Source of the DNA: Rhizophagus irregularis | Taxonomy: Eukaryota | Assembly (NCBI RefSeq): GCF_026210795.1 | Contig: NC_089429.1 | Span: forward strand, 3,968,001 to 4,032,000 | Length of the DNA: 64,000 nt | Direction: 5' to 3' | In this document: piece by piece, positions 31,010-62,862 of the stretch | How positions within the stretch are numbered: the first letter of the stretch is position 1 | Layout of the letters: each line of letters opens with the position of its first letter | Notes under the pieces: generated by a model | Databases searched by the model: none | The model's input: the letters and a program-made list of their open reading frames with translations, nothing else | What the model was told of the DNA's origin: nothing | Position numbers and translations under genes: made by a program

Positions 31010-31279
31010 ATATAAACTTGATATCAATAAAGCATATATAAATCATTAAAAAAAAAAAAAGTATATGTTACTATTACCTTTTTTTCCTCAAAAACTGACT
31101 TTGCTGAAACTTGGAGTTTACAATCGATATTGATTAGATATCGCAATGATATCATTACGATATCATTACGATATTTTGATAAAAAATAGATTTGACATCG
31201 TTAAGTTAGTCGTAACTGTATTTATTTGACATTGATTAGTTTGATATCTCTGTGATATCGCTGTGATCATTATGCGATG

Positions 31280-31930
31280 TAAATATTATCACGTAACCAC
31301 ATCGTAGTGATGTCGTATTAACATTGAATTAATATTACAACAATATTTGACATTTATTTGATATCGTAACCATGTCGTATTAACGTAGTGATATCATATT
31401 AACATCGAATAATATTCAAAAATATTTTATCTATTTGATATCGTAACCACATCGTAGTGATATCGTATTAATATTGAATTAATATTACAAAATATTTGAC
31501 ATTTTATTTGATATCATAATCACATCGTAGTGATATCATATTAACATCGAATTAATATTGCAAAAATATTTTACATCTATTTGATATCGTAACCACATCG
31601 TAGTGATGTCGTATTAATATTGAATTAATATTACAAAATATTTGACATTTTATTTGATATCGTAATCACATCGTAGTGATATCATATTAATATCGAATTA
31701 ATATTGCAAAAATATTTTACACCTATTTGATATCGTAACCACATCGTAGTGATGTCGTATTTACATTGAATTAATATTACAAAATATTTGACATTTTATT
31801 AACTACATCATAATAATATCATATTAATATCGAATTAATATTACAAAAAATGTTTTACATTTATTTAATATCATAACTACATCGTAATGATATTATATTA
31901 ACACCGAATTAACATCACAAAAATATTTTT
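31280..31930. repeat. 73-bp tandem repeat array with alternating (dimeric) variants
   Basis: CACATCGTAGTGAT at 31448, 31521, 31594, 31667 and 31740 (73-bp period), with degenerate copies on either side. Confidence 0.9.
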
Positions 31931-43550: not shown

Positions 43551-44360
43551 ACGCTCTAATTTTTTTATAAAATTATGCATTTTATAACGATATTACATTG
43601 AATAAATTTAGTAAATTTTACAAGTAAATGATAATATGAAACATCATTATTCTAAACATTATACCATAATGTCAAGTGATAATAATATAAAATAAAATGG
43701 ATGTATAAAACTATAAAATGTTTGTCTAAGATATAACACTTTCAAGTTTAAAAAGTAATTATTGTTTTGTTAAAAATGGAATGGTTATTATGTGACATTT
43801 CTTCTTTAATGTATACGGCCTAAATATCTCTATATATTTGACGTTATTATACAGATCAAAAAGAATACATTTACGTAACATTTGTGTAAAGTAAGAACTT
43901 TAAAGTTTAAGCCAATTCTGACTGGTAATTTACAAAATAACAAACACATTTCTTAAAAAAATTCTGAATCAGAATACTTTTCCGGTTTTCATTTTCGATT
44001 CTGCAAAAAATTGAAAAGTTCAGGTGATAATTCAAGAAATATCCACCTATAAAAGACTAAACAATTATCAGGTTGATCAAGTTTGTGTAATACCAAATTT
44101 AATAAATTGTCTGATTAAATAATCGCGTATATTAAATGATCGCGTATATTATAAGGCTATTAATTCCTAAAAAGTCAATTTAACCACTATTTTATTTAAG
44201 ACTATTTATTTTGTACATTTTTTTTTTTTAAAAAAAAAACTTTCTTTCTGAAAGTAGAGTCTGTTGTCGGGCTGGTAGTGTGTCTCGCTACGCTCAACCC
44301 ACCTCGGCCAGGGGCCTCGCAGTACCTACATCTCCCCTCCGTGGGGTAGGAATCCCCTAT

Positions 44361-44603
44361 ATCTGTCACTATCTGTCATTAACATCTGTCATATAATAAT
44401 ATACTAAAAAAGAATGAAATAAGGGAAAAGAGAGGAAAATACGATAGAATCAGAGGGGTATGACAGATATGACGGATATGACAGATGTTTCAGAAAAATC
44501 GGGAGAGGATACTCCCAGAAAAAAGTTTTGATTTTACCCCCCCAGATCTGTCATTCTGTCATAGATCTGTCATATGATCAGGATTCAGTCTATTCATCTG
44601 TCG
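44361..44603. repeat. Iteron-like ATCTGTCA cluster (putative replication origin)
   Basis: ATCTGTCA or variants at 44361, 44371, 44384, 44546, 44554, 44565 and 44596; inverted TGAC(A/G)GAT at 44461, 44470 and 44479. Confidence 0.8.
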
Positions 44604-44720
44604 GAAGCAGTGAGATAGCAAACCGAGTAAACAGGTAGGTTAATAGCCCCTAGAAGGTCTGTAAAGCCACAGAGAGATAACCGGGTAGAAGCGCGGATCT
44701 TTGGAAAAAATACATTCGGC

Positions 44721-44730
44721 AATTGAAGAT
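44721..44730 (+). promoter_or_regulatory. AATTGAAGAT upstream conserved motif (first of 7 in the element)
   Basis: The same or a variant motif lies upstream of each + strand element gene from 44773 to 60373. Confidence 0.65.
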
Positions 44731-44772
44731 TAGGTAACTATAAATTAGTACTCGATTTAATAGAACGAAAAA

Positions 44773-47344
44773 ATGACCACTCAAGCTCAAGTTATCCCCA
44801 AATTCGGTGAACAAACGAAAGCCTTTAGTATCAATGAGCTTAAACGGCTTATTGTCGCTGCAAAGAGTATGAGTGACCTCGATCAAGCCAAGAGGTATCT
44901 TTGCAGTTATTTCATTCCCTGTGCAGATCCTCATGGGGTTTTCTGGTGGGACCCGGATAGTAAAAGTTTGAAACACGTTATTGACAAAAATATTGGTAAA
45001 CTTATCCGTCCAATTATGAAGGTATTCTACACACAACCTGAACAAGGACCCTCTCAAAAGACCGAGTTCAACATCTACAAATGGTTTATGGTCGAGAATA
45101 CCGATGTATGTAATGCAACCTGTGATCCCCATAAACAGCGAATCTTCAGATCCTTAACCGGCCAACTCTATCTAAATATCTTCCCGGGATTCCTCCACGT
45201 CTTGCGTCCGATATCCACCTTTGAGTCTACAATTCACCTCGCGGTTAAATTTATCTTCTCTCACATTCAGGATATCTGGTGTTCGGGTGATTGGAATCTC
45301 ACTGAGTATATCATCAAGTGGTTGGCCGGTGTATCTGCTGGAAGGAAGATGTACTCGATCCTTTACCTGAAATCTGGACAGGGTTGGGGCAAAGGCATTA
45401 TAACAGATTTCATTCAGCGCAGCGTCCTAGGCACTCAACTCGTTTATAAGACCAGCGATCCTCAGACGATTCGTGGAAGTTTCAATGGGCAATTACAGGG
45501 TAAGATTCTTCTTCTTCTCGAGGAAATGCCCACGGAAAAAAGCCAGTGGAATAATCTGTATCGCTCTTTAAAGGATAAGGTAACGAGTGACATAATGGAA
45601 ATCCATGAAAAATACAAGACACCAACACATTATAAAAACTTTATGTCTACTATCGTCCTAACCAACGAAAATGCTCTCAGAGTGGATAATGATGATAGGC
45701 GCACAGTGTTCTTGGATGCGTCACCATCCCGCAAGGGAGACCTCAACTACTTCAAAAAACTCGGTGACGCTATGAAATACCCAGGCGCCAGTGAGGCATT
45801 CTATGCTTATTTGAGAGCCATTGCGAATACTTACTCAGACTTCAATGGAAATCCGCCACCCATGACAACATCCAAACAGGAACATATCATCTCAACTCTT
45901 CCACCGCTATTCCAATTTATAAAGGACACATACCTCATAGTGAAAAATTATATGACCGACCTACCTGTTCAAGAATTTTATAGGGTATATACTTCATATT
46001 GCGAAACTCGTGGCATTACACCCTTATCAAAGATAAACGCTTCTAGAATCCTATCAAATGAGTTGAGTATAAATAGTAATCGGACTTATATAAATAAAAA
46101 GTTAACCCGAGTATATAGCATATCCAGGGAGGATCTTTACAATAAATACCTCGGCAAAAACTGGATCCACGAAACAGACGAGATAGATATAGAAGGAATT
46201 GATATAGAGACTTCTAAGAAACCCGCATCAGACCCCAAAGCCTTGGAAAAGTTCTTGGCAAATATATATAATCCAGCTAACAATCCACAAGACGTACAAG
46301 AGAAACCCGCTGAGAAAAAACCCGCTGAGAAAAAACCCGAACCCGCCGAGGAAAAACCCGCTGAGAAAAAACCCGCTGAGAAAAAACCCGCTGAGAAAAA
46401 ACCCGAACCCGCCGAGGAAAAACCCGCATCTGTAATTCGCAAGACTCCTCCACCGCTTCCACCCAAGCATGACCACTTAAAAGAACGTCCACAAGAGTTA
46501 AGGGAAGAACAACCGGATCCCGATGAAGATACTAGTGAGTCAAACACCGATGAACCTATAGATAACTTCTCAGACTGTTATCTATCTGACGAGGAACCCA
46601 ACCAAGAAGAACCTATCCCCGAGCCAGATAACTACGACGTTTTAGATGACTTGCTATCTGACTCAGATTTTACAACTGTAAACCCAGCTCCTGAACAACA
46701 ACCCGAGTATCCCGCAGAATCTTCTGCATCTGTCACTAAGCCTGACCCAGAACCGGCTTCTGAAGAGCAATTTATCCCAGAACCCGACACAGAACCAGAA
46801 GTTGACCGGGATCCTGAACCAAAGGGAAGGCACTCGAGCGCACTGGGCTTGGCAAGAAAGACACCGATGGGATCGCAAACCATGGGTTAAAAATTTAAAG
46901 GACCAGGTCTTCAATGATCTCTACAATACAGGTAAGGAATTATGGGCCAAGTACCAAGATGCGTCAGACGAATATGACTGGGAAATACTCGCGTTTGAAA
47001 TAGAGGAATGTCCCACAACGCGTATTGAGGACGAGTACCAGTACTACCTTATGGAGGTAGTAGACCGCTTCAAGGACTGGATTGAATATAATGGATACTT
47101 ACCTAAAATACCTAGCCGTAAAGAACTCGCAGATTTAATAAGAATATACAAGGAGAATCGTAATGCCGAGATTATTCCCACCCCCTCTGGTTATGAAACT
47201 ATGAGGGCAGATAAGGGAAAAGCGCGAGAGATCCCTGAGGAACGTCCAAAAACTGATATGGAACGTGAATGGGAGGCCGCCAATGGAATCATCGATGACT
47301 GGGACGAAGAGGATACTGAGGGCGCTATCAACGACATATTGTAA
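44773..47344 (+). CDS. SF3/D5-like helicase with winged helix and acidic Pro-rich tail (frameshift near 46822)
   Basis: Walker A SGQGWGKG, Walker B LLLLEE, motif C VLTN, DDRR; wHTH-like region 45913-46170; ORF 46802-47344 continues it after PEPK. Confidence 0.85.
46300..46427 (+). repeat. Coding minisatellite (KPAEK / KPEPAEE)
   Basis: 15-bp units AAACCCGCTGAGAAA and 21-bp variants in tandem. Confidence 0.9.
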
Positions 47345-47429
47345 GCGCTATTTGAGATTATTTCTTTTTTTTTTCGTATATATATAGAAAGATATTATTT
47401 ATAGTTGAAGACAAATCATATACATAAAA

Positions 47430-49284
47430 ATGCAATACTCAAGAATTGCCCGCACTTTACCAACACGACCTGACATCAAGGAACTTCAGTATTCCGGTGC
47501 TCGCTTTTCCAGAGGAGCTATCGCCAGACTCGGTCAGACTCTCCAGACGCGATTTCCAGATAGAAAGTTCCAGATCCCTACTTCCCTATGAAAACTGGAA
47601 ACCCGGTGGATGGACATCAGGAAACCAACCAGCCAGCCTCTTTTCACTATTAGACCATTATGATGAAGCACAACTACCGGATGACGCAGACCCTGATTAT
47701 TTTGAACGATTCATAATTTATGCAAGAGATAGTCCACCGGCCGCAGGAGGATGCAATGGGGAGCTAAATGATTGCCTGTATGAATGCCTAAAAAATATTT
47801 ACGGCACATTCTCTAAAATGCCAAAGTCAATCGAAAAGCCCGAGTATATCAAAAAGGCATTAGGTCTCAATCGCGATGCTCCCATCCCAGTTTCATGCAT
47901 GGACAAGGTTGAACAACTCGCAGGAAGTCTCGCAATTAATATTGTGGGGGACATTACCCGAATCTCTAAGAGTAAGTCCGATAGACGTGCGACTCTCATC
48001 CTGTCAGAAGGCCATTACTCCCTCGCGTTAAATCCCGGAAGACTCCACTCCAGTAAATTAGATAAAAAGCGTAATTTACCCATTGTATACCATGAAGATG
48101 GGACCAATAATGTAGTCACAATATACAACGGCAAAACGGTTAAGTCTTGCACAATTGCGCAGTTTCAAAAAACTAAGAATTCCAAAAGTTCTTTCATCCC
48201 CGTCAAGAAAAACCGTAAGACTGGAGTATATGAAACTCTTGAAGAAGCATATCAGAGAATCCACGAGGAGCGGAATTCCTTTCTACAGGAGACAAAGAAG
48301 TTCGGTTTAGGAATCGACTTATCATACCATAACTGGTCTTACAAAAGAACGGCTCTCTGGTTATTCGAACGATTAAGTGTAGGGATTCCAGCCAATGATC
48401 CTCTTGACCCGATAGAAGCAGAGTGGTTAAGTGATGCAATGATGGGAGGATTAATCTGGGCAGATAACGAGTGGAAGGGCTATGGAAGACAGTACGATGC
48501 AACAAGTTTATACCCGAGTATTCAACAATCGAATGCAAACTTTCCAATCAGACGGGGTAAATTCCAGACACTTAATGACTTTGTTGACCACAGGGGTTAT
48601 GCCTTGTATGGATTATTCCGTGCCAAGGTAAGTGGGAATAATATTCTCTTCCGACAGAATAAAAGGGGAATCTATACATTCATCGACTTACAACGAGCAA
48701 AAAAACTTGGTCTCAATATACAGTTAATACAGGATGGGAAGCCAAATGCATTGATATACGATAGAGAAGCGAGAATCCCTGGAACTGTAATATTCGGTGA
48801 GTATGTACACTTCCTCTTCAAAATTAAAAACCAGGGTGGCGTAGCTGGCCGCGTGGCAAAGCGAGTCCTCAACACATTATGGGGAGCATTATGCCAGAGG
48901 AAGCGTAATTACAAGACACTCACCGCAGATCAAACAGACCCGTTTACATTTCCAGAGGGCCATACACTCGACTCTATCATACCAGTAGGATCTGACCAGT
49001 GGCGATTCCAGTTCACAAACCCGGGTAATCCCTTCAAAGGTGAGTATCCCAGGATCGCCCCATTCTTATTAGCACGTGGTCGCAAAATCACATCTGAGGC
49101 AATTCAACCATACAAGGATAAAGTACGACGTATCCATACGGATGGATTTATTTTAGAAGAGCAGCCAGATAGCCCCGCGCTTTTCACTTGTTCAGAGAAT
49201 GCAGATACGACTCTAAAGACTTTCAAGTTTGAAACCGCGGGATACTGCCATGTGAAAAATGCGAACAAGGTTATCTGGACATGA
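47430..49284 (+). CDS. Protein-primed family B DNA polymerase-like protein with putative vOTU domain (frameshift near 47577)
   Basis: MMGG, motif A YDATSLYPS, motif B KRVLNTLWG, motif C IHTDGF; ATG at 47430 (MQYSRIAR...) joins LLPYENW after one extra base. Confidence 0.8.
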
Positions 49285-49377
49285 TTGCTAAGAACTGGTA
49301 GGTTTATTTTTTACTGACATATCGTGATGGCATAATTGAATAAACCTATGGGATATGTAATCTTACGAGATACCCAA

Positions 49378-49872
49378 ATGCAAAACACCGACGGATTAGG
49401 TAGACAAGACGATGAAAGTTTCCACGCGTGGGCTAAGCGCATTCAGAATGCTGTGCAATATTATGAGACTTGTAGTAGAATAGGTTTTCATAGGCGGCTA
49501 CCTTATCCAAGGTCTCGTCAAGCTGTATATGCTTATATTGTGCACATTAGGAGAATAGTATCACGACTACCAAATAGGTGGTACTGTACCTACTGTAAAT
49601 CTTTTATTGATCGCGGATGGGGAGCTGACGCTTTCATGGATCAAGCGGTGCGACTACATTTATATAGTTGCCCAAAGCATTTTAATTTCGACTATTATAC
49701 TCATCATGCTGAAATGATCCAGAATGCCTTTAGGAGATATATAGAAAGAAGGAACAATAAAGCGGCTAGGATAATCCAGAAAGTCGCTATCCCCTGGTTA
49801 TATAGACCAGGCTCTCCATTGATGCAAAAGGCCGAGCGACGCTTCTACTGTCTTGCAGTATCCCAAGTGTAA
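49378..49872 (+). CDS. Zinc-finger-like and IQ-motif protein
   Basis: CTYC...H...C; IQNAFRRYIERR and AARIIQK; ATG 49378 lies downstream of AATTGAA at 49334. Confidence 0.6.
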   Translation: MQNTDGLGRQDDESFHAWAKRIQNAVQYYETCSRIGFHRRLPYPRSRQAVYAYIVHIRRIVSRLPNRWYCTYCKSFIDRGWGADAFMDQAVRLHLYSCPKHFNFDYYTHHAEMIQNAFRRYIERRNNKAARIIQKVAIPWLYRPGSPLMQKAERRFYCLAVSQV

Positions 49873-49954
49873 ACCCTGAGGTTCATATTTATTTTTTCTC
49901 ATTCGAATGAACAGGTAACTGAAGATTTATATTTTTTACAAAGTACAAAGAATC

Positions 49955-50425
49955 ATGTCAACATATACCGAATTCGCAAGCATTGTTAACAGCACTGACA
50001 GCACTAGTGATGAGGTTATTTACGAGGCATCGCGCATTCAGCCTAGTGTTATCACTGACGAAACTGTCCCCAAGATTATCCGCGCATTAAAAGATACTAT
50101 AGTAGTCGCATTAGTATCTGGGTTTAGCAAAACCAGTTACCTCGTCCAGGACCACGTGAAGTATATCAAGCGAATCCAAACGGCAAATTCTCCTGTATCA
50201 TATGTGAAGTTCGTGGCCAGAAAACTCTTCCCAGATAATGCGGCATATACTGCTAAAATAGCAAAAATCCGCGAATCATACAAGAATAAACAAGCTCTCC
50301 TAGATAAGCTTGAGGCCCTCTTCGAATTGTATTATAATGCGACTAAGGACTCATCAACCGGTCCCCCAAAGCGAGCTATTACTAAAAACGAGGCTGAGAA
50401 AACCTTAACAGAACTTCTTGCATAA
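49955..50425 (+). CDS. Hypothetical helical protein (156 aa)
   Basis: Intact ORF with upstream AACTGAAGAT and downstream TATTTTTT. Confidence 0.7.
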   Translation: MSTYTEFASIVNSTDSTSDEVIYEASRIQPSVITDETVPKIIRALKDTIVVALVSGFSKTSYLVQDHVKYIKRIQTANSPVSYVKFVARKLFPDNAAYTAKIAKIRESYKNKQALLDKLEALFELYYNATKDSSTGPPKRAITKNEAEKTLTELLA

Positions 50426-50538
50426 GCGGCTCCCTGTGGTCCTACGATCCCTAGTACGAATTTAGTCTATATTTTTTATCCATGTGTAATAGGCATACAG
50501 TAATTGAAGATAGACTATAGTATAAGTAACATAACATC

Positions 50539-50965
50539 ATGTTGGACCGATTACCAGTAGAAATAGTCGAACGCATTGTCGCAAAAGATCCCGGATACTG
50601 ACCTTATTGCAGCGAGTAAGGTAGATAGAGTGTGGTGGCGAGGAAGTTCGTCGAGAGGCGTATAAGAGGTGGAAAAATTATGCCACTACGATCGGGGATG
50701 TGTACTGTGAAATCGAGCTCTCGGAAAGCATTATATAAGAGGGAAATTGACTGGATAACGTTTGAAGATGTAAACGACCTCTATAAAAGATGGATAAACC
50801 AGCTGCACGAGGGGATCAGGCTTTATATTATGGAGAAAATGCTTAGGAATGGGATGGTCGTGGACCCCCCAAGAGAGAAACCATAGAGTATGCATTAAGT
50901 GAACAAAGATGGGGAGGCGATCCTTGGGGACTGGGAGTGGTATGAATGGACTCAACAGGAGTAAG
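50539..50965 (+). pseudogene. F-box-like protein, multiply frameshifted
   Basis: Reconstructed MLDRLPVEIVERIVAKIPDTDLIAASKVDRVWW; motif at 50502; downstream frames continue into ORF 50632. Confidence 0.6.
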
Positions 50966-51485
50966 CATTTTGTACTTGACTTTCGTAGGAATTACCCTGC
51001 AGAGTCATATTTTTTAGATCCGGCCGGCATTACCGCGTAATCCCGAATTACCGAAAAAGGAAATTTATGTTACACAAGGTTCCAAACGCATTCTTACCAA
51101 ATCGATTTTTTGTGGAACGGGTATCGCACAAAAAGGAAATGATCTACGTACCGCATGAAATCACGTGACACTCTACACATTTGTTCAGGGTATCACGTGA
51201 CATGAACTCCGTTCACATTTTCTGTAATATAATCCATAGTTTTCCATGAATGCTTTTTAGGCCAATAATCCAATAACTTATTCATCAGGTATCCTCGTGT
51301 TTTGCGACAAGGACTGATGACCATGTAACCTCATCATCAGGCATCCTCGCATTTTTTGACAAGGACTGATAAGGAATGATGATAGATCTCTTACCGCTGA
51401 TCTATTGACCAAAAATTTTCGGAAAGAAAATTTTATATCTTCGTACTAACAACTCTTATATTTTACCCAACTCATACCTTCTAAC

Positions 51486-53600
51486 ATGTCTAGAAACCTT
51501 GCTAGAAGAGGTGGCGGCAGCTATAACCCTAACAGTAATAAGGCTGCTCGTCAAGAAAAGAAAATAATAAAAAACAACTCTCTGATAACTCTGGTTCCGA
51601 TAGCGATAATAATTCCCAAAAACGTTCCCGTATACTTACAAAAGACTCCATGGATGAAGACTATGAAGATTTCGTTGCCGACGCGCCGGCTGACGGTGGT
51701 TTAGTTGGTTCAACTTCGACCGCTATTCCTCAACAAAATAATTCCCGCAGCACTGCCCAAGAAAATACTCAAGCTTCTACCCCGAAAAATTCTGCTGCGC
51801 CTACTGCGCCTGGCCAAGACGCGTCTTCTGGAGCTAACGCGTCTATTCATACACCTCGAAACAAAGAAAATAACCCATCCCCTAACGCGTCCCCTAATAT
51901 GGACGTTAATGATGGTACATCGCCCTGATCAGGCTGTTGATCCCTCCCCTACCATTACCATTAATCGTCAAGATTTCCTGGCTGCGGCTGCGCCCAACTC
52001 CGCTCCCCCAAACTCTTGAGAAACTTAAAACCAATAAGGCAATTATAGAAGCCGTTAACAACTTATTTTTAGAAACGTATGAATCATATACCGGTCGTGC
52101 ACGTATGACTGGCTCGGGGACGCTAAACGTCTTATCATACATTTTCATACTGCGGAAGCTCGTGACTTGTGTGTTGGTAGCACACATTCCGACTTTCCGG
52201 ACCTTCAATTCCACCTGTACGATCCCAAACAGCTCCCGGTCCGATGAAGACCTCCGTGCAATTCAAGTAACAGATATCCCGTTCTTCATTACTAAACCGC
52301 AACTCCAATCCTATTTCAAGAAGTTTGGCAACCTCCTTACCATCCATCTTTACTCGAGGAAAGGTGCTAAGATGCAACAAGCCCGCATTGTCTATGATCA
52401 TGCCGATGCCATTTCCCGTTTCACTACTCAATGGGCAGTTTACTGCTTTTCTACCCTGCTTGCGTGTTACCCCGTGCCACTACTCCTTGGATCAAAAAGC
52501 CGCTCGTAGAGCGTTCGTGTTGTTCTCTGGACTTCCCGCTAATACTAAAGATATTCATCTCGCTCCTCTGGTTAAAGAACATGGAGCAAAAGCAATTAAC
52601 ATTCCCTTTCCCCTGAATTCTTATAAACCTAAACCTTGGGCTTATGTCACCTTCAACTCGCAGGAAACAATGGATGCCGCTATGGAGCAAACTATTGGTT
52701 TTCAAGGTCGTACTCTTCGGTGGGGTTCATCCAATGATTCGAAAGCTCTTTGCCATCGTTGTGGTAAACTTGGTTGTGCTCCTACCTCTTGCCCGCTTAA
52801 TCAACGCCGTGGTCGCTCACGTACACGTGACCCTGTGGCTGCTCTTAAAGAACGTTTCAATATTGGCCAAAAGCCCGTCCAATAGAACGCACCGCGCAAT
52901 AATTCACGTTCTCGTTCTCGATCTAAATCTCGGGATCGTTCTGCTTCTGCTCACCGTTCTAATTCCAATTCCAATAGTTCTAATACTAATGGTAATAACA
53001 ATAATAATAACAAACCCCCCTCTTCTGGTTCGCCTGCCCATGGACGTGCACCTTCGATTACCCGAAAAGGCAAAGATAGATCTGTTTCTTTTTCGTCCAA
53101 TGCTCGTGCTCCGCTCTCTGATTCGAATTCTTCTAGTGCGCCTAGAGGCCGCTCTTAACATTCTTAATGTTCTAAAGAACCTTCAACAAGATGTTGCTCG
53201 TGTGGAATCCCGCATTTCCTCCCTTGAACTAAACAACCAACGGCTTTCTGCTATAGAAGGTCATTTAGGCATTAGTCCTCCCTCTGTACCTATCATTAAT
53301 TCTGAACCTGATCAAATGGAAGAAGATCCTCCCGAAATCACTGGCACTTTAATCCAACATCCCAATGCTCCCTCATCATCTTCTGGTTCTATGAAACCCC
53401 CTTCCCCTAAATCTATTTCCAACAAGGCTCCATAGCTCGCTTGCTACTTCTAACCCTTCCCAGCAAGACGAATTGAACTCAGTTATTCAAGATCAAAAGG
53501 CGATTAAAGATACTTTACAATCGCTCACTGGTTCCATTCAAGGTTTCATTGCTTCTCTTGGTGGTTCACCCTCCGATCGAGCTTCAGCTCCTTCGCAATA
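51486..53600 (+). pseudogene. LINE ORF1 (RRM-like domains + zinc knuckle), frameshifted
   Basis: IQVTDIPF..LQSYFKKFG, WAYVTFNS, CHRCGKLGCAPTSC, RS-rich and coiled-coil tail spread over several frames. Confidence 0.75.
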
Positions 53601-53649
53601 ACTGACTTCTCACCTTTTTTTCCCCGTACTTTATTATCATTGTGCTCTA

Positions 53650-56600
53650 ATGTCAGACAATTTTAATTATGATACATTTGTTCGAAACCCACCCAACCCC
53701 GTAGATACTTATATCTTTTCTGAACATGAATCTTTATTTACTACCCCAAATTCTTCCCCTATCCCTAATTCCTTTAATATTTCATCTTTTAATGTTAATG
53801 GTCTTCGCCATAATAGTCAAATTAAATTTGAACAAATCTCAAACTTTTTTAATCTTAAACATATTACCTTTGGTGGTATCGTTGATACCCATTTAACCCC
53901 TAAACAAATTCATTTCTTATCTAAACGCCTCCCTAATTATACTGTCTTTTCATCTGATATAGATAAAACCAAACAGGTCAATTCTACTGGTGGCGTCTCC
54001 CTTTTCATTGAAAAATCCCTTGCTTCCCATGTACAAGATTTTGTTTCACATTCCTCACGAATTTTATCTGTTGACCTTTATTTTAAAGGCAACGTTAAAT
54101 TTCGTATTTTTGTGATCTATATTCCCCCTATTTCTGATTCTAAATTACGATCAGAAACTATTGATCTTCTTTTACAACTTTTGGTGCAAACTAAACAACA
54201 AAAATTTTATCATGCCATTTGTGGTGATTTTAATATGCACCTAGATACCTATTACCCTATTTACTTTAATCGCCCTGCTACCGCTTCGCAACGATCATAT
54301 CGTTTGCTACATCATCTTTTATCTCATGGCTATGAAGAAACTATTCCTGTTAACGCTTCTGACTCCTTAGGCACCTTTCACCGTGATGACCAAGTTACTC
54401 GTATAGATTATGTTTGGTCTTGCCCAATGCTAAAAGGCTTCGCTCTCACTTCTTATATCTTTGACGCCCAAGACACCTGCTCTTCGGACCACAATCCTAT
54501 CATCACGTATTTTGATGATTCACTCTTGGTTGCGTCTATCAAGGTTGCTCGTGCTAAACAACTTCAACGACAGACTCGTCGCATTTTTAAATTTGATTCC
54601 GTCACTGCTCAGCAATGGGAATCCTTTTCTACTTGTACTGACTCCTTATGCAACGTTTCTCCTTCCACCTTTTCAACATGGCACATCAATCAACAATGTG
54701 AATATTTACATTCCCGTATCGTGAAAGCTGCTAATGCCTCTCTTCCGTCTGTCAGCGGTTGGCAACCAATTTACACCTACGATGCCTAAGGATTTGGAAG
54801 CTTTAACTCAACATTATCGTTTCCTCAGCCGTCTTCTGCATTCGATACGTTTATTGCGAAAATATCCTTCCACATATTATAATAGATATGAACGTACTTG
54901 GTCCGCTCATTTCATTCGACTTCAAAAGATTCTTCATCTTTATAAGAAGGTTATTCCTTCTCCCCCTATTTTACCTACTTCTTTATCCACATGTAGGCAA
55001 GACGATTTTAAATGTTTATTGGAATCTTTAAAGTCTATCTCCAATACCCTCCATGGTTTCCTTCTTCTCAAAGAAAAAGACTTTCAGGACTCTTCCATTC
55101 GTGCCAAATTGGACGATCGGGACAACAATTTTGAAACTGATATTTCTTCCTTTATTAATTCTGCTCTTTCAAGAACTCGACGCCGTATCACTTTGGATCG
55201 TGTCTTTATTGATTGCCCTACGCATCCCAAACTTTTAACGGACCCACTCGACATTGATAACGCTGTTATCAACCATTTCCAAAATTCCGTACCTATCAAA
55301 TCGACTCCTCCTATTAACATTTCTGCTTTACCGGAAAGATGGTCTTCCGCTTATCGCCCTATGGACGATGTGGATTCCTCCATTTATAATTCTTTATTGG
55401 ATCCTCCTACTCTGGACGAATGGTTGTCTACGGTCTCTTCTATGCCTAATGACAAAGCTCCTGGTCCCTCTATGATCACTTATGAGATGCTTAAGCATCT
55501 GGGCCCTAACACTTCCGCTTTGATCTTAATCCTGGTCCAATCATGTCTTCGTACTGCAGATATTCCTGATTTATGGCGTCAAGCTATGGTTTTCCCTATC
55601 CCTAAACCTCACGAATGGAAATGTCAACTCAAGAACACAAGACCTATTACTTTACTTGAAGTAATTAGGAAATCTTTGGTTAAACTTTTTTACAACCGTC
55701 TCGCTTCCATTTTGGCTTCAAATGAAGTGCTCAGAGGAGGAAACTTCGCTGGTCTGCCTGGTGGTTCTTGTCGCGACCCTATTGTCGTTTTTGAATCTAT
55801 TATCCATGATGCTCATGTCAACAAATCGCCGCTTTGGATCCTTTCGCAAGATATTTCGAAGGCTTTCGACTCGGTTGATCTCAAGATGTTGCGTTTCGCT
55901 CTTGAACGCATTAAACTTCCTGCTTCTGCTACAAAATTTATTTTATCCCTTTTCATGAATCGCTCCAATCGCGTTTTTACTGCTCATGGAACTACTCCTT
56001 CTTACCGTGTTCGAATTGGTATAGATCAAGGCGAAGTTATCTCTCCCTTACTTTGGGTTATATATATAGACCCTTTGTTAACTGTTCTTAAGAATGAAAT
56101 GATGGATCCGTATACGCTTCATGCTCCTTTATTATCTAATCCCTTGGCTATGACCAATTCTGATGGATTACGTATCAATAACTTGGTCTTTATGGATGAT
56201 TCCACTTTAATTTCATCATCCAAATCCGGAATGGAATCGATGCTCTCTATTACGGAAGAATTTTATCAAATTAATAATACTTCCGCTAATCACAACAAAT
56301 ATGTTTTAATTACTAATTCGTTGCCTTCCACTTCAGTTCCTTCACCTTCTCCTGTCGTGTTTGACTTACATTTATCTGGATTGAACAAAGTTCCTTCCAT
56401 TTCTATTGTGCCCATCTCCATGAATAGCTCTTTCCGCTTCCTGGGCGTCTGGTTCAATGTCGCTGGTTCTCGCGATTTTGTTAAAAAGCAAGTTGCTAGA
56501 GAATGTAACTCTTTCGCTGCTACCGTTCGTCCTGCCAAATTATCTGCTAAACAAGTTGTCTATTTGCACAACACCGTCCTTATCCCGAAATTGGAATATC

Positions 56601-59272
56601 GCATGCAAGTCACTCACCTCTCCGAATCTGAATGTGCCTCGGCAACCAGTAGTATTCGTTCCATGGTTAAACATAAGGCCAATTTTTCACGTGTACTCCC
56701 AGATTCTATTTTGTTTTTATCTCAAGGCTTGGGATTGATTAATTTATTTTTTCACCAATCACAAACACATTTAACTAATTTATTTTTATTAGCTAATTCT
56801 TCTTCTTCTTTTATGAAAAATTTATTTTTCTATAGATTACGTTTAATTCAATTTTCTTTTTTGATTCTTATTTCTCCGTTGTTAGTTAAAGATTGGACTA
56901 TATGGTCTAAACTTTTGCTTTTAAGCAGGATTATATCGCTTGCACTATTGCTCTCCTGACTGCCACTCCTTTCAAGTTGTCGTATTCTCCACTTTCAGCT
57001 TTGCCTAACCTTACTATATCCGATGGTCATACGCCTTTATTTGAAATAATGACCCCAAAGATTTTTATCTCTTACTTCCGACGTCTAAGAAGTCTGCAAC
57101 TCTATTACCTATCTCAATTTATCACGCCTCAAGGAACCCATATGATCACTTGGAATGTTTATCTTTCCAGCTTATCAAGTAGGAAAGGTCATCGAGTCCT
57201 CCCGCATAAGTGGTTCAATGACATTCATCAAAATGTCACCGTTCCAAATTCCAATTCTCTACTCTTGGATCAATTCTCTTCCGAAGCCGTTCCTTCAGGC
57301 GTTGATTTGGTTCCTGCCTTTGGTTCCTCTAGAAAATCCATGAAATGGATCGTGTCTTTGGACGAAGATGGTTCCCCCTTTATTTGGAAAACAGCTCGGC
57401 AAACAACAATATTCTTGCAAGATTGTCCATTGGACTTCTGATTGTGTGACTCGACCTAATGATGTTATCACGCTCACTCCTTGTCCTGGTTGTTCTAAAC
57501 ATATACCGGTTACCCATACTAAAAGTAATCCTACAGATGTTACTCCTTTATGTATCATCCCAAAACTTTCTCCTCTTAGATCTTTAATTCTCCCGACAAC
57601 GCAGGAGCGTATTAGACATGATACCTCTACTATTACTTCTCCTTTCACTTGGGCGGACCTTGATGAAACTGTAAGATCATATTATGGTCGTTTGGACACT
57701 CAACCTAATTTTTCACAAGTAGAGATGGTTACTCCTCTCCTACTCTTTCTTCTTCCTCTTTGGGCTCGGCTGCTTCTCTCGCTTTTGCTGCCTCACCGTT
57801 AGCGACTCCTCCTAATAACCATTATTGTTTTTATACTGATGGTTCTTTAATTAACCTTGGCACTCCTGATGTTTCTATGGGTTGGTCTTGGGTTCAAGTC
57901 CTCGATGGCGCTGGTTTTTTCCAATCTATCGCTGCTTACGCTCATGGAATTATTCGTAACTGGCCTTCCTCTACGAAGGCTGAAATTGCCGCTATACATG
58001 CTGCTCTTACAGTCACTCCTCCCTTCTCAACGGTCGACTATTTATACTGACTCTCAATCTGCCATAGATGGTCTTCGTCTATGTGCTACCTTTTCTTATT
58101 CCAATAGTAGGCTCTATTACAAGACCACCAATTTTGAACTTTGGGCTATTATTGAACGTCTCATTTTCTCTAAATCTTTATCTGTCACGGCTGTTAAAGT
58201 GAAAGGTCACTCTGGTAATTTCTACAATGACTACGCGGACTCATTGGCCAATTCTGCGCATACTTCCTCTTCAGCAGTTCTTCTTTCTGATTTGGATCAA
58301 GTATCTCCTCACGATTTCTTATTAAAATATGATGATATTTTATGCGAATCCAACCCACGACGCCTATTCAAGCAATATTCGCAAATGCTGTGGATGCATA
58401 GACTAACGCGTTTATCACGTTTTAATTTCACCATTGATTTATCTTTTACTTCAGATTTCGTGATTGATTGGGATCTTACCTGGTTTTCGCTCAATTCTGA
58501 ACCTCAACATGATGCCTCTTTTACTCGAGCTCATGCTTCCTCTCATCGCACCTTCAAATTCAAACTCTTTTTGGAAGATTTGCCTACTTTGGAACATCTT
58601 AAAAGAATTCGCCCGGACTTGTATATCGACATTTTATCATGTCGTTCATGTCTCGACTCCAAGGAAGATTTCATGCACCTTTTTATGTGCAAATGTAGAC
58701 GAATCGCTATGGAACAGATTCTCCTCTCCTACCAACATCATTTTATCACCAAACTTCAAGAAGCTGGTGATCTCGTTAAGAAAGATCCCTCTTTACTTAT
58801 TAACAAATTTAAATCTCTTCCTTGTTGGTCCTTTTCTTCTTCAAATTGGACTTCATATAGCCTTGTCCGTGGCTGCCTTCCGAAATCCTTTGTTGAAATT
58901 TTTGAAGAACTTTCTATCCCACGTAATTCTGCGATGAAGGTTATCTCTGCCATCCACAATCACTTTATCCAAAAGATCAGAAAACGAATTTGGCTACCGC
59001 GTTCCTATGACAAATCTAAATGGGAAAATGCGATGAACATCACTCAAAAACTTAAACTTTCTCGGCCTTCAAATTTGCCAAAGTCTACGTACTTACCTTT
59101 CTCAACTTTACCTCCTCCGACCCTTTCCGACGCCGCACGTGACTCCGACGTTGATTATTTAAAGAACTCGATGAAATATGGTTTGCCTTGGTTTAATCAC
59201 TATTCGGGTTTTATGGGTCGTCTAACGGTGCAACTTACTAACAGCTTTAGCAGGGTGGTGTGTCGATTTTAA
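53650..59272 (+). pseudogene. LINE ORF2 (APE, RT, RNase H, Zn finger), few frameshifts
   Basis: FNVNGL, CGDFN, RIDY, SDH; KAFDSV, GIDQGEVISP, FMDD, RFLG; YTDGS, YTDSQ, KGHSG; CRSC...H..C. Confidence 0.92.
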
Positions 59273-59626
59273 TAATGGGCGCATTGTTCGTTGGTTTGCT
59301 TGCATAGTTGCTTCTTCTTAGGTTGGAATATATCTAGGCGGGGGATCAGGATAGTTTTAGTGTTATGCGATTTTTTCCTTTCTGAATTAATTTTATAGCT
59401 TTATTACTGTTTTGGAGACTATATAGTTTTATTTTTAGTTAATTTTATTTTTCTTTTTTGTACTTTGAAAATTTTATTTTATTTTTTTGTAAGTTCGTTA
59501 AATAATTTTAATAAAGATAAAGGCTACTATGCCATATTTGCCTTGACAAGGACTGATGACGATGTCACTTGGTTATTGTAAATTGAAGATAACAATTAGG
59601 TATGTAGACACGTACAGAAAAAAGAC

Positions 59627-60211
59627 ATGTCATACCCTTATATAACTAATCCTATAACCGGACGTCCAATCCGTGTTGGTGGAGATACCTTTAATCGAAT
59701 AGTTATGGAATCCCATGATTATATCGATGGAAGGCTTGTCCGTAGACAAACCGTACCGCCTCCACCCCAGGAACAACCTGTATATTTAAATACAGATACA
59801 GGACGCTATATTCAACACGGTACTAGAACGTATCATAGACTGGTTGAGAGTGACTACGAGGTAGTTGAGGACTACTACCTTGTTCATTCTGAAGAGGAGG
59901 AGCTTATAGATGAAATCATCAATGAAACACGCTATAATGAGGAAAATCTTGATGGCCAGCGGTTAACTTTCAATAATATACAACAAATCAGAGCCGCTAT
60001 TCAAGCTGACCAAGATGAATATGATGATTTTATCTTACAGCAGAATACGACTAACGGGACACCTTCCTCCGGTCCTTCCGGTCATCCACGAACTTTGGAG
60101 GACCATGCCCCGAGACTTGCAGAGCTTAATATTGAGTTGTGTAGGGAATGTCTCATGCCTGTAAGCCCAAGTGACTTAACGGACAAGTTGTGCAAGGACT
60201 GCGCTTCCTAA
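59627..60211 (+). CDS. Protein with two 2-cysteine-adaptor-like repeats and a C-terminal C4 zinc ribbon
   Basis: NPITGRPIRVGGDTFNRI and NTDTGRYIQHGTRTYHRL; CREC...CKDC; AATTGAAGAT at 59581. Confidence 0.65.
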   Translation: MSYPYITNPITGRPIRVGGDTFNRIVMESHDYIDGRLVRRQTVPPPPQEQPVYLNTDTGRYIQHGTRTYHRLVESDYEVVEDYYLVHSEEEELIDEIINETRYNEENLDGQRLTFNNIQQIRAAIQADQDEYDDFILQQNTTNGTPSSGPSGHPRTLEDHAPRLAELNIELCRECLMPVSPSDLTDKLCKDCAS

Positions 60212-60372
60212 TGGTGAGTCCTCCGGTCCTCTGGTCTTCCGGTCTTTCCAACGGTTGATCCCTTAATGCCAGTTATTTTTTTTTTATACAAATGACAGGT
60301 ATTTAAAGATAACAATATATAAAAAAGATTGTGAAGGATACTAAGTGAGCGAATAATCAAAGAAAGATAGCC

Positions 60373-60924
60373 ATGTCAACATCAATCGTAATAAACCAGT
60401 GTCAGAACTGTGGAGTATTCTCTGCAAAAGCGGCATATAGAGGATTATCCAGCGTGTTGTATAGACAGATTATAAAGAAGATTGGTGACGAGAGTGAACC
60501 TTTACAAGCCTTGGGACTTGCCAGGGATAAGTTGGTCCAGATTATCCGTCGGGCAAGTAATGCGGATTTTACGCAATTATTCACACAAAGACTAGATATG
60601 AAAATTATGGACGGAGATTCATACGAGGATACTAGGAAGTGGCTTCTTGAACAGCTTATAGCCATTGGATGTGACAGTGGGGAAATTGCCTTATATCAGT
60701 TCTTACGGAATATATACCCGGATGGTATTGACGAACCCTTTACTACATTCTATGAGAACTATGTAAATCATGTAAGAAATCCGATGACTAAGAACTTTGC
60801 TTCTCGAGCCTTAGGAGCTATTGGATTAAAAGCTAGGATGCTACGGATTGACTTCGAAGGACGTAAAAAAAGCGCCATGATTCTTAGGGCTTCTGCGGAA
60901 GAACTTCGTGAGATGGGTTGCTAA
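60373..60924 (+). CDS. Protein with a C-terminal winged helix paralogous to the helicase wHTH
   Basis: QFLRNIY..D.PFTTFYENY...PMTKNFASRAL aligns by eye with QFIKDTY..D.PVQEFYRVY...PLSKINASRIL. Confidence 0.65.
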   Translation: MSTSIVINQCQNCGVFSAKAAYRGLSSVLYRQIIKKIGDESEPLQALGLARDKLVQIIRRASNADFTQLFTQRLDMKIMDGDSYEDTRKWLLEQLIAIGCDSGEIALYQFLRNIYPDGIDEPFTTFYENYVNHVRNPMTKNFASRALGAIGLKARMLRIDFEGRKKSAMILRASAEELREMGC

Positions 60925-61301
60925 AGCAACCAGATTCTTACAAAATACTATTGATCCCTACTCGTAATGCTCGACGGTCCATATGACCCTTAGAAAAGAT
61001 CTGTAAAAGGACCCCGATGCCTTCTATTATTTTTTTATTATCCAAAGGGTGACTAGACTTTAGGACTTCATATCGGAAGAATAACTCCTTTACGGTCTCA
61101 GATTTTGGAATTTCAGTCTTCGCGGTCCTATCCCGTACTTTTGCTAAGAATTTTTGGAAGTCTGATCAGGGTTTTACCAGATAGTCCGTAGGCTTCCCGA
61201 AAGACGTACTTAATCCAGGTATCTGCGTTCTTAGCTATAATACCAGATACGAGGAGGTGTTTTCTCTCTTTAGGCGATGGATATTCCCGAGCGAAACTCA
61301 A

Positions 61302-62126
61302 TTAGCTGGGAGGACTTTTTGCTTCAGCTACAGCTTTCTGGCCATAAGGACTAAACTTTGATCGAACTGGGTTCAAACTCGGATCGAACGGGGATTGAAC
61401 TGAGTTCGAACTAGGATTGAACTGAGATTGATCAGTGATCGAACTGAGACTAGTATCCCATCTAACCCGAATAGATAACGGATCGCTCTTGGATCTTCTA
61501 AGATCAAATACTATAAATTCGCGTTGTAGAGTAAGGTCATCGATTACTGGAGCTAGTGACTCCGATTCTTCTGTATACTGGCGGATGATCCTCTTAGTAT
61601 CGGTCAAACTTCCGTGACCTCCATGTAGGGAAATATAATTCACATTTTCACGAATAGCCTTGGGAATGGTAAAGAATCTTTGGGCCACATAGATACACGA
61701 GATATTTTTGTGACGCCCGTGTGTAAAAAATCCAGTGATGAGATCCTGGGTTTTTTTAGGCGCATCCATCAAATCCTCGAAGATTACCACAGTAGCCTGG
61801 GTGGAGTTGAAGTCCTTAACATTTGGAATCTCACTATGGGATACTGCGGTAAACGGAATTTCTTCTTCTTTGAAAAAATCACGTACGACTGCCCACTTCG
61901 GTTCATCGAGGTATCTGCCAACTAGAATTACCGCATCACATAATATGTACCTTTCGCCATCCTCCTTTGCCTTCTTGTCTCCCATTAACAAATTAATAAT
62001 CATAGTTGTCTTACCCGAGTCAGAACTTCCTGCTACGGCAAGACGGAAAGGCCATGATGGGGCAAACTCATTACCCTGTCTCGAGTCGGTCGTGTACTCG
62101 TCCAAATTGTATACATAAAGATCCAT
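61302..62126 (-). CDS. A32-like (FtsK/HerA) genome-packaging ATPase; C-terminus probably extends to about 61050 through frameshifts
   Basis: Walker A GSSDSGKT, Walker B VVIFED, A32-type GRHKNISCIYVAQ....PKAIREN. Confidence 0.88.
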   Translation of the reverse strand: MDLYVYNLDEYTTDSRQGNEFAPSWPFRLAVAGSSDSGKTTMIINLLMGDKKAKEDGERYILCDAVILVGRYLDEPKWAVVRDFFKEEEIPFTAVSHSEIPNVKDFNSTQATVVIFEDLMDAPKKTQDLITGFFTHGRHKNISCIYVAQRFFTIPKAIRENVNYISLHGGHGSLTDTKRIIRQYTEESESLAPVIDDLTLQREFIVFDLRRSKSDPLSIRVRWDTSLSSITDQSQFNPSSNSVQSPFDPSLNPVRSKFSPYGQKAVAEAKSPPS

Positions 62127-62157
62127 TTGAATTTTATTCTATCTTAGTTTAAATACG

Positions 62158-62862
62158 ATGTCGACACCAATTGCAATTTATACTCCTTCAGAGCCTACTG
62201 GACCGCCTCCTAGGGATTTGCGTGATATGAATAATATACCATTAGTTGCGGTAATTAAGGATCTAACAGATTTTTTAACTGTCAGTGATCGCATGGTTGT
62301 TAATCGAGATGTACAAAATGCAAACCATCGTCTTAAACATGCTCTTAATTTATTAATTCATCGCTGTAGAGAAACATACGAAGAACGCGATATATTAAAA
62401 GCAGAACGTGATCGATCTCGAAAAGAACGTGATGAATTACAAGATGAACTCGAGGTTCAAACGGGTTTGTTAGGTCTTACACAAGATGAGCTAAATAACG
62501 TACAAGATACTATTACTAGTTTAGAAGCTAATTTGGCTGAATTGGAACATGAGTTTGGTGGTATGCGGACGACTAATCGTCGTCTTCAGCAGCAATATAA
62601 TCTTATGAGAGGAGAACGTAATAGAGCTATAGGTGAACGTAATAGAGCTATAGGCGAGCGTGATGTGGCACGAAATCGGCTTGTATATGCCAATAATCGG
62701 GTTCTTTTTGGAATTCGGACATTGGGACGTCTTAGGAATCGACTTTTCCAACAAATAGCCGCTCTGCGTATCCAAGTACAATGGTTTCGGATTAGACAAT
62801 TGAACCCTCCTCCACCTCCTCTCAACCATCCACAAAATACGATATGGCTGCCGTTGGTATAG
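62158..62862 (+). CDS. Coiled-coil protein, probable N-terminal part of the Gag-like gene
   Basis: Heptad-rich ORF with RNRAIGE repeats ending in poly-Pro; overlaps the next ORF by 19 nt. Confidence 0.65.
   Translation: MSTPIAIYTPSEPTGPPPRDLRDMNNIPLVAVIKDLTDFLTVSDRMVVNRDVQNANHRLKHALNLLIHRCRETYEERDILKAERDRSRKERDELQDELEVQTGLLGLTQDELNNVQDTITSLEANLAELEHEFGGMRTTNRRLQQQYNLMRGERNRAIGERNRAIGERDVARNRLVYANNRVLFGIRTLGRLRNRLFQQIAALRIQVQWFRIRQLNPPPPPLNHPQNTIWLPLV

What the first reader, a model, noticed from the sequence alone, without database searches (positions are those of the whole stretch)
44721..60310. Element-specific upstream motif AATTGAAGAT before each + strand gene from 44773 to 60373
Seen: AATTGAAGAT at 44721, AGTTGAAGAC at 47403, AATTGAATAA at 49334, AACTGAAGAT at 49917, AATTGAAGAT at 50502, AATTGAAGAT at 59581 and ATTTAAAGAT at 60301. 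They start 27-72 nt before the ATG. The motif also pointed to starts the ORF track missed (47430, 49378, 50539). Known: it resembles the mimivirus early promoter AAAATTGA and the ATNTGA UCS of yeast cytoplasmic linear plasmids. Inference: transcription by a dedicated or helper-virus RNA polymerase, as in virophages.
Basis: partly seen in the sequence, partly recalled or inferred. Interest (0 to 1): 0.78.

Follow-up and report, generated by a model that had tools for sequence, protein, structure and literature searches.

The report
Giant-virus-type promoters in fungal Polinton
Each gene of a virus-like transposon in a mycorrhizal fungus sits between a short conserved upstream word and a downstream T-run, a layout like that of giant-virus early genes, so the element is likely read by the RNA polymerase of a co-infecting giant virus rather than by the fungus.

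Summary
Observation confirmed and extended. All seven strings are at the stated places, 27-72 nt before the ATG. They lie in a capsid-less Glomeromycota Polinton (D5 helicase, pPolB, A32; Gag-like/aspartic protease; chromo-integrase in a relative), interrupted by a LINE whose ORFs are not part of the pattern. The conserved core is AWTT(G/A)AAnA; the GAT tail is local. A matrix trained on the seven sites scores 24 held-out upstreams from distant relatives above 1000 of 1000 shuffles. This three-part grammar matches poxvirus/asfarvirus early transcription, and an asfarvirus-like endogenous virus with RNA polymerase genes is published for this species. No RNA polymerase gene was found in the element, so a helper is more likely than a dedicated enzyme. 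Nothing here shows function: no start site was mapped, poly(A) reads are scarce, and some cross a predicted terminator. New variant of a known kind.

The parts
44253..64000 (.). Glomeromycota Polinton copy (left end near AGTAG at about 44253; right end beyond the window)
   Evidence: GC rises from about 25% to about 42%; gene order shared with L002, L006, L008; that Polintons start with AG is recalled, not tested
44721..44730 (+). Promoter core before primase-helicase; predicted start about 44746-44747
44773..47344 (+). D5-like SF3 primase-helicase, frameshifted near 46890 (ORFs 44773-46890 and 47051-47344 are one gene)
   Evidence: DUF5906 and Pox_D5; both parts match one long ORF in L002
47365..47374 (+). 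T10 run, predicted terminator
   Evidence: poly(A) reads cross it
47403..47412 (+). Promoter core before pPolB; predicted start about 47428
   Evidence: core 26-30 nt before the ATG in 10 of 10 pPolB orthologs aligned
47430..49284 (+). Protein-primed DNA polymerase B, frameshifted near 47575
   Evidence: DNA_pol_B_2; P0001 95-98%; many R. irregularis homologs
49307..49312 (+). TTTA-T6, predicted terminator
49334..49359 (+). Core AATTGAATA plus TATGTA at +16..+21; predicted start 49359
   Evidence: same in L004
49378..49872 (+). Variable-slot gene of unknown function
   Evidence: present in L004, absent between pPolB and the next gene in L001 and L002
49892..49897 (+). ATTTA-T6, predicted terminator
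49917..49926 (+). Promoter core AACTGAAGA
49955..50425 (+). Conserved 156-aa gene, no family hit
   Evidence: orthologs in 11 of 37 loci; no Pfam hit
50472..50477 (+). CTATA-T6, predicted terminator
50502..50511 (+). Promoter core before F-box-like gene
50539..50967 (+). F-box-like gene, frameshifted in this copy
   Evidence: intact ortholog L001:2439-2855, weak F-box hit; paralog in L008 passes the F-box cut-off
51330..59545 (+). Inserted non-LTR retrotransposon (RRM, endonuclease, RT, RNase H); not part of the motif pattern; GACAAGGACTGATGA at both sides
   Evidence: boundaries approximate
59581..59606 (+). Core AATTGAAGA plus TATGTA at +16..+21; predicted start 59606
59627..60211 (+). Gene with 2-cysteine-adaptor-like repeats
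   Evidence: PF08793 E 0.00095, below cut-off; named homologs only in R. irregularis
60276..60285 (+). GTTA-T10, predicted terminator
60301..60310 (+). A-core variant ATTTAAAGA (weakest of the seven)
   Evidence: leave-one-out p 0.37
60373..60924 (+). CxxC plus probable winged-helix protein; candidate DNA-binding factor
   Evidence: alignment; Atlas leads under 0.9 only
61030..61036 (+). TATTA-T7, predicted terminator, overlapping KKII codons of the A32 gene on the other strand
   Evidence: same codons and T-run in L008
60937..62126 (-). A32-like packaging ATPase, frameshifted in its C-terminal part
   Evidence: Pox_A32; 403-aa ortholog in L008
62125..62154 (.). Overlapping divergent cores: ATTTGAA (+, 62125) and ATTTAAAC (-, 62154); both imperfect
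62158..64000 (+). Coiled-coil ORF overlapping a Gag-like ORF that continues into an aspartic protease in other copies

Best explanation
The motif is a conserved, strand-specific upstream word of a capsid-less fungal Polinton that likely acts as the core of a giant-virus-type early promoter, likely read by the transcription machinery of a co-infecting asfarvirus-like virus. Shown in sequence: each gene is a cassette of core AWTT(G/A)AAnA, a spacer of about 15 nt, a TA dinucleotide 20-21 nt after the G, a short leader, an intron-less ORF and a TATTTTTT run after the stop. Inferred: a D6/A7-type early factor binds the core, the viral RNA polymerase starts at the A of TA and stops at the T-run, giving one mRNA per gene; the integrated copy stays near-silent until such a virus infects the fungus, as with virophages, PgVV and transpovirons; the A-core variant before right-half genes (A32, Gag-like/protease, integrase), which tolerate internal T-runs, would be a second, later class.
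For: Core: held-out score 5.49 vs 3.56, 0 of 1000 shuffles; de novo top words in 48 upstreams are T-runs and AATTGA/ATTGAA, with ATTGAA in 17 and its reverse complement in 0. Spacing: none of 44 cores closer than 26 nt to the ATG, mode 27-28; TA at +20/+21 in 14 of 24 sites far from the ATG, 3.5 expected, p 0.0002 with position search corrected; TA 20, CA 0 of 39. Core-plus-TA pattern in 19 of 39 element upstreams, 1 of 39 reverse strands, 1 of 49 non-element ORFs. Vaccinia UCE geometry puts the start at G+20 (my arithmetic from PMC6211774); the ASFV early initiator is TA* (PMC7458399). Terminators: T5+ within 80 nt after 43 of 55 stops, 15.2 expected; TATTTTT 33, its reverse complement 3, AATAAA 3. 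T5+ inside ORFs: 2 vs 21.0 in 8 pPolB genes, 10 vs 20.9 in 23 other element ORFs, 30 vs 28.0 in retrotransposon ORFs; A5+, C4+ and G4+ runs not comparably depleted. Pacmanvirus has AAAATTGA plus WWTTTATTTTTTAWW (PMC11788076); ASFV ends at poly(T) (PMC7163114). An asfarvirus-like endogenous virus with RNAP subunits, capping enzyme and VLTF3 is in R. irregularis 4401, asfarvirus-like polB in all five strains (PMC10640383). In IMG/VR the full grammar precedes an ORF in 14 of 56 hits, 7 of them named giant-virus MAGs, and the genes include Rpb3 and Rpb6.
Against: No start or end was mapped and no helper DNA could be examined. The core lacks the upstream AAAA of mimivirus/vaccinia and has A instead of G in 31% of 44 sites; I could not see the ASFV logo. 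In the window only 2 of 7 sites have TA exactly at +20/+21, 4 of 7 within one base. Window ORFs pooled show no T5 depletion (7 vs 7.5, all 7 in A32 and Gag-like genes). Orthologous upstreams and ORFs are related, so p-values overstate independence; the pattern was derived from these same sites; three or four anchors fit poorly. 12 of 55 stops have no T-run within 80 nt. Poly(A) reads cross the T10 run at 47365 (depth 21-49 in three runs). 42 of 56 viral hits precede no ORF and look like chance. Host controls are mostly transposon relics; true host promoters were not sampled. The nearest capsid-bearing relatives (L094-L097) do not use this motif.
Confidence: 0.6

Rival explanations
1. Compact host RNA polymerase II promoters: the core is a TATA-like TBP site (TATTTAAA/ATTTGAA), TA is the initiator, and T-runs are fungal U-rich 3'-end elements; the element is an autonomous nuclear transposon.
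For: A-core variant resembles a TATA box and the core-to-TA distance of about 25 nt is near the Pol II range (recalled); the element has a chromodomain integrase and many nuclear copies; an earlier AI note reports host-type gene-by-gene promoters in an animal Polinton (unchecked).
Against: G in the core in 63% of sites is unlike TATA; CA never occurs at the initiator position (0 of 39); AATAAA after only 3 of 55 stops; Pol II-transcribed retrotransposon ORFs show no T-run depletion; G-core in 0 of 49 non-element ORF upstreams; few full-length-fitting reads in poly(A) libraries (no positive control).
Confidence: 0.2
2. The helper is not a giant virus but an unseen autonomous sister element or cytoplasmic linear plasmid (pGKL2-like) that carries its own reduced RNA polymerase and capping enzyme; this element is the pGKL1-like dependent partner.
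For: Same geometry as the yeast UCS (27 of 44 cores within 40 nt of the ATG; PMC6211774); fungal host; lone capping-enzyme genes outside the large viral region in strains A1 and B3 (PMC10640383).
Against: No RNA polymerase gene in window, L008 or the element ORFs scanned; ATNTGA met in about 27% of sites; yeast elements end at stem-loops with U-tracts and have no integrase (integrase point recalled).
Confidence: 0.1
3. Relic or replication signal: the words were promoters in a viral ancestor and now persist by descent, or are binding sites of the element's own CxxC/winged-helix protein with no role in starting transcription.
For: This copy is broken by at least four frameshifts and a LINE; little RNA; candidate DNA-binding gene at 60373.
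Against: Core, spacing and T-run avoidance persist across relatives with only 55-60% pPolB identity and intact ORFs, and across non-homologous genes and swapped cassette genes, which implies selection in the lineage's recent active state.
Confidence: 0.1

Closest known systems
Glomus/Rhizophagus Polinton (Kapitonov and Jurka 2006, seen only as cited in PMC7805220 and PMC11296320; passages read)
   Same: pPolB, RVE integrase, A32 ATPase, primase-helicase, no detectable major capsid protein, same host species
   Different: No promoter or terminator grammar was found in print by my searches; nor the Gag-like/aspartic protease module
Asfarvirus transcription signals: ASFV EPM, TA* initiator, poly(T) terminator (PMC7163114, PMC7458399); pacmanvirus AAAATTGA and WWTTTATTTTTTAWW (PMC11788076); passages read, logos not seen
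   Same: Upstream TGA core, TA at fixed spacing, TATTTTTT after stops
   Different: No AAAA run before the core; frequent G-to-A variant; located on a 15-kb integrating element, function untested
PgVV/Gezel-14T Polinton-like virophage (bioRxiv 10.1101/2022.07.28.501842) and pacmanvirus transpoviron pltv (PMC11788076); passages read
   Same: Small element without RNA polymerase that carries its helper's early promoter
   Different: Those carry the early motif before a minority of genes (5 ORFs; 2 of 12) and have a known helper; here nearly all genes carry the core, the host is a fungus, and no jelly-roll capsid was found
Yeast cytoplasmic virus-like elements pGKL1/2, UCS ATNTGA (PMC6211774, passages read)
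   Same: Fungal, pPolB-based, one conserved TGA word per gene 20-40 nt before the ATG, start about 19-20 nt after the G
   Different: pGKL2 encodes the polymerase; termination at stem-loops; this element integrates and has A32
Capsid-bearing PLV/virophage-like contigs L094-L097 (IMG/VR)
   Same: pPolB about 30% identical, DUF5906 helicase, RVE integrase (with chromodomain in three of four), A32
   Different: L097 has a Preplasmiviricota double-jelly-roll capsid; their leaders are TATA-rich and lack the AWTTGAA core

Membership tests
Polinton/Maverick | Protein-primed PolB | tested here: met
   DNA_pol_B_2
Polinton/Maverick | RVE integrase | tested here: inconclusive
   rve plus chromodomain in relative L008; the position lies beyond the window end in this copy
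Polinton/Maverick | A32-like ATPase | tested here: met
   Pox_A32
Polinton/Maverick | Jelly-roll capsid and cysteine maturation protease | tested here: not met
   No tblastn hit of five capsid or capsid-candidate proteins and one protease in window or L001-L033 (low sensitivity); literature also reports no MCP
Polinton/Maverick | Terminal inverted repeats and target-site duplication | not testable with these tools
   Right end outside the window; no genome held
NCLDV early promoter (UCE/EPM/AAAATTGA) | TGA core in AT-rich context | tested here: met
   T 95%, G 63% (A 31%), A 97% of 44 sites
NCLDV early promoter (UCE/EPM/AAAATTGA) | A-run upstream of the core | tested here: not met
   Only two A columns; position -5 is T in 61%, -6 to -8 mixed
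NCLDV early promoter (UCE/EPM/AAAATTGA) | Start site about 20 nt after the G at a TA initiator | tested here: inconclusive
   TA enriched at +20/+21; no start site mapped
NCLDV early promoter (UCE/EPM/AAAATTGA) | Poly(T) terminators after genes and avoided within them | tested here: met
   (sequence only)
NCLDV early promoter (UCE/EPM/AAAATTGA) | Bound by D6/A7-type factor, read by viral RNAP, early timing | not testable with these tools
   needs experiment
Yeast VLE (pGKL-type) | UCS ATNTGA | tested here: not met
   second position T in 27%, A in 70%
Yeast VLE (pGKL-type) | Own or partner-encoded RNA polymerase and capping enzyme | tested here: inconclusive
   none in window or L008; a partner element could not be searched
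Yeast VLE (pGKL-type) | Stem-loop terminators | not tested
   no folding test was run
Virophage / transpoviron | Virophage capsid and protease genes | tested here: not met
Virophage / transpoviron | Replication depends on a giant virus | not testable with these tools
   inferred from promoter grammar only

The most novel reading that the evidence does not exclude
The long-known capsid-less Glomus Polinton is a satellite of the asfarvirus-like giant virus of arbuscular mycorrhizal fungi, with early and late promoter classes, and it has replaced the jelly-roll capsid and cysteine protease by a captured retrotransposon Gag-protease placed head-to-head with its packaging ATPase. It would be the first giant-virus-dependent element in fungi and a living parallel to the step that led from Polintons to yeast cytoplasmic linear plasmids.
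Probability: 0.25. Interest if true: 0.88.

Novelty: new variant of a known kind. Interest (0 to 1): 0.64.

Why it matters
No dsDNA virus had been shown to infect these fungi when the endogenous asfarvirus-like region was described (PMC10640383). A multi-copy element whose genes keep giant-virus-type start and stop signals across distant lineages is independent, indirect evidence that such viruses infect Glomeromycota recurrently, and would explain how a Polinton without capsid or polymerase for transcription is expressed. It gives base-level predictions (start sites, end sites, shared motif in the giant virus) that existing genomes and a 5'/3'-end experiment can test, and it corrects gene starts in a repeat family annotated as hypothetical host genes.

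Tried and rejected
No own genome held, so no genome-wide host control and no count of copies. No close relatives in IMG/VR by pPolB or A32. No RNA holder listed. Four 2026 raw runs laid on 44200-51400: 162, 187, 118 and 102 reads of about 11 million each, 73-98% running on into unlike sequence, no pile-up of starts or ends; without a host control this does not measure expression. The right half of the element has no RNA data. Splice-donor reading of CAGGTAAYT rejected: GT is absent at most sites. Reading the core as the 3' signal of the upstream gene rejected: it precedes the first gene and its distance is fixed to the ATG, not to the T-run. Reading 62158 onward as a separate gypsy insertion rejected: same position in L008, no RT in 62 longer homologs' listed domains. 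Gag-like model unusable (pLDDT 32.6); no PDB relatives for pPolB, capsid candidates or Gag. The 2C-adaptor gene gave no named viral homolog. Host kinase control (12 vs 10.6 T-runs) is confounded by intron edges. Kapitonov and Jurka 2006 and the 2024 MMBR review were not held. No supplements were opened; those of PMC10640383 may list genes of the giant-virus region. Own-findings look-ups by place, words and sequence gave nothing.
Full report
1. Observation. All seven strings stand at the stated coordinates, 52, 27, 44, 38, 37, 46 and 72 nt before ATGs. The three additional starts are supported by orthologs. Inside the element, 7 of 9 plus-strand matches with up to two mismatches lie in the 4.4% of sequence 20-80 nt before an ATG; the 8 minus-strand matches lie within plus-strand ORFs. 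The word itself is common in the AT-rich host DNA (3.9 per kb against 1.8), so specificity lies in position and strand.

2. What the region is. GC rises from about 25% to about 42% near 44253. Genes: D5-like helicase, pPolB, three small genes, a LINE insertion (about 51330-59545), two small genes, A32 on the minus strand, and a coiled-coil/Gag-like gene running off the window. pPolB homologs are numerous in Rhizophagus irregularis, with more distant ones in metagenomes. Of 37 metagenome loci, L008 (58% pPolB identity) shows the same order and continues with aspartic protease, RVE-chromodomain integrase and DUF5679. This fits the capsid-less Glomus Polinton named in PMC7805220 and PMC11296320 (passages); the original description was not held. 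This copy is broken by frameshifts in helicase, pPolB, F-box-like and A32 genes. No gene hit an RNA polymerase family, and the sequence beyond DUF5679 was not seen.

3. The core. In 48 curated upstreams the top enriched 6-mers against shuffles were TTTTTT, ATTTTT and AATTGA/ATTGAA, the last in 17 upstreams and its reverse complement in none (near-duplicates included). A matrix from the seven window sites alone scored 24 upstreams of distant loci (close loci and four near-duplicates removed) at 5.49 against 3.56 +/- 0.41; 0 of 1000 shuffles reached it. Distances to the ATG run from 26 to 72 nt, mode 27-28, none shorter than 26. Three or four anchors fit poorly.

4. A second element. Among 24 sites at least 34 nt from the ATG (five close orthologs dropped), TA starts at G+20 in 14 (3.5 expected; p 0.0002 after allowing for position search), often as TATRTA at +16..+21. 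Over 39 sites the dinucleotide is TA 20, AA 9, CA 0, and TA occurs in ten gene families. In the window it is exact in 2 of 7, within one base in 4 of 7. The two-part pattern is in 19 of 39 element upstreams, 1 of 39 reverse strands, 1 of 49 non-element ORF upstreams and 2% of random host 100-mers (pattern derived from these sites). It also marked further intergenic sites in L005, L010, L013, L015 and L024 that were not used to build it, and five or so hits inside ORFs or on the opposite strand.

5. 3' signal. A run of five or more T follows 43 of 55 stops within 80 nt (15.2 expected, orthologs not collapsed); TATTTTT 33, reverse complement 3, AATAAA 3. Inside ORFs T5+ runs number 2 against 21.0 expected from synonymous shuffles in eight pPolB genes and 10 against 20.9 in 23 other element ORFs, but 30 against 28.0 in retrotransposon ORFs; other homopolymers are not comparably depleted. 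In the window the seven plus-strand genes hold none, while A32 and the Gag-like genes hold seven, so the pooled window count is not depleted (7 vs 7.5). In relatives internal runs are again almost all in right-half genes, which also prefer the A-core (G-core 19 of 24 left, 3 of 15 right).

6. Comparison. Vaccinia's 15-nt UCE has TGA at positions 6-8 and ends a median 12 nt before the start, which puts the start at G+20 by my arithmetic; pGKL is 11 nt (PMC6211774, passages). ASFV has an EPM related to both, 9-10 nt before a TA* initiator, and ends at poly(T) (PMC7163114, PMC7458399, passages; logos not visible). Pacmanvirus has AAAATTGA and WWTTTATTTTTTAWW, and its transpoviron carries viral promoters (PMC11788076, passages). 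PgVV carries its helper's early motif before five ORFs (bioRxiv 2022.07.28.501842, passages). R. irregularis 4401 holds a 1.5-Mb asfarvirus-like region with both large RNAP subunits, capping enzyme and VLTF3, and all five strains hold asfarvirus-like polB genes (PMC10640383, parts 1-3 of 5 read; also PMC7017919, passage). A scan of IMG/VR for terminator-core-initiator gave 56 hits; 14 precede an ORF, 7 of these on named giant-virus MAGs against 8 of the other 42 (p 0.04), with Rpb3 and Rpb6 among the genes. This points to giant viruses generally, not to asfarviruses. The nearest capsid-bearing relatives (L094-L097, pPolB about 30%) share helicase, integrase and A32 but have TATA-rich leaders without this core, so the signals were not simply carried over from them.

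7. RNA. Four 2026 runs gave 102-187 reads each on 44200-51400, mostly fragments running on into other sequence, no start or end pile-up; reads around 47092-47573 cross the T10 run. This fits stray host transcription of silent copies but does not support the predicted mRNAs, and there is no control for the fungal share of the libraries. The right half has no RNA data.

8. Mechanism and odds. Shown: conserved, oriented, spaced core-TA-ORF-T-run cassettes. Inferred: promoter and terminator function (about 0.9), reading by an NCLDV-type polymerase supplied from outside (about 0.7, of which giant-virus helper 0.6, plasmid-like partner 0.1); host Pol II 0.2; relic or other binding site 0.1.

9. Novelty. 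Helper-matched promoters are known in virophages, PgVV and transpovirons, and the element is known. Searches for a description of these signals in Glomeromycota Polintons found none (listings only, subscription papers not covered). Two earlier AI notes on Polinton promoter boxes in other genomes are unchecked leads. Verdict: real feature, new variant of a known kind, interest 0.64.

Noticed in passing
window 62158-64000; L008 5995-9423: Gag-like plus retropepsin polyprotein (about 680-920 aa in R. irregularis models, no RT domain listed) sits head-to-head with A32 in both copies; candidate replacement for the missing capsid and protease. Gag assignment is weak (Retrotrans_gag E 0.03 to 1e-4, below cut-off; model failed).
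   Followed up: partly
window 62844-62862; L008 7215-7230: The coiled-coil ORF overlaps the Gag-like ATG by 16-19 nt in both copies, behind a proline-rich stretch; possible programmed frameshift or re-initiation.
   Followed up: no
element-wide: Two core classes: G-core before 19 of 24 left-half genes but 3 of 15 right-half genes; internal T5 runs occur almost only in right-half genes.
   Followed up: partly
between pPolB and the 49955 gene: Variable cassette slot: 49378-type gene in window and L004, Gag-like fragment in L007 and L030, other genes in L011 and L031, empty in L001, L002, L008.
   Followed up: partly
window 50979-51299: 321-bp stretch that reads from other copies replace by a short T-rich sequence: probably a second small insertion in this copy.
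   Followed up: no
window 47430-49284; alignments A1, A3: Short (about 620 aa) pPolB with invariant Cys and His in the N-terminal part, like a vOTU-type protease domain (recalled), and little room for an exonuclease; 1946 clusters at 50% identity belong to the wider family.
   Followed up: no
L034-L036: Very distant pPolB contigs carry a different repeated upstream word (TTTTATATAAA-like).
   Followed up: no
L098 29-562 and 8440-10056: A pPolB fragment of this family on a contig with an NCLDV major capsid gene.
   Followed up: no
window 9918-12463 (-): Multi-exon host gene that looks like a kinase with Sel1-like repeats (from the translation; not scanned).
   Followed up: no
window 31268-31929; 36317-38782; 41-302: 73/146-bp tandem array, three 855-bp tandem copies of an acidic ORF, and a long near-perfect inverted repeat in host DNA.
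   Followed up: no
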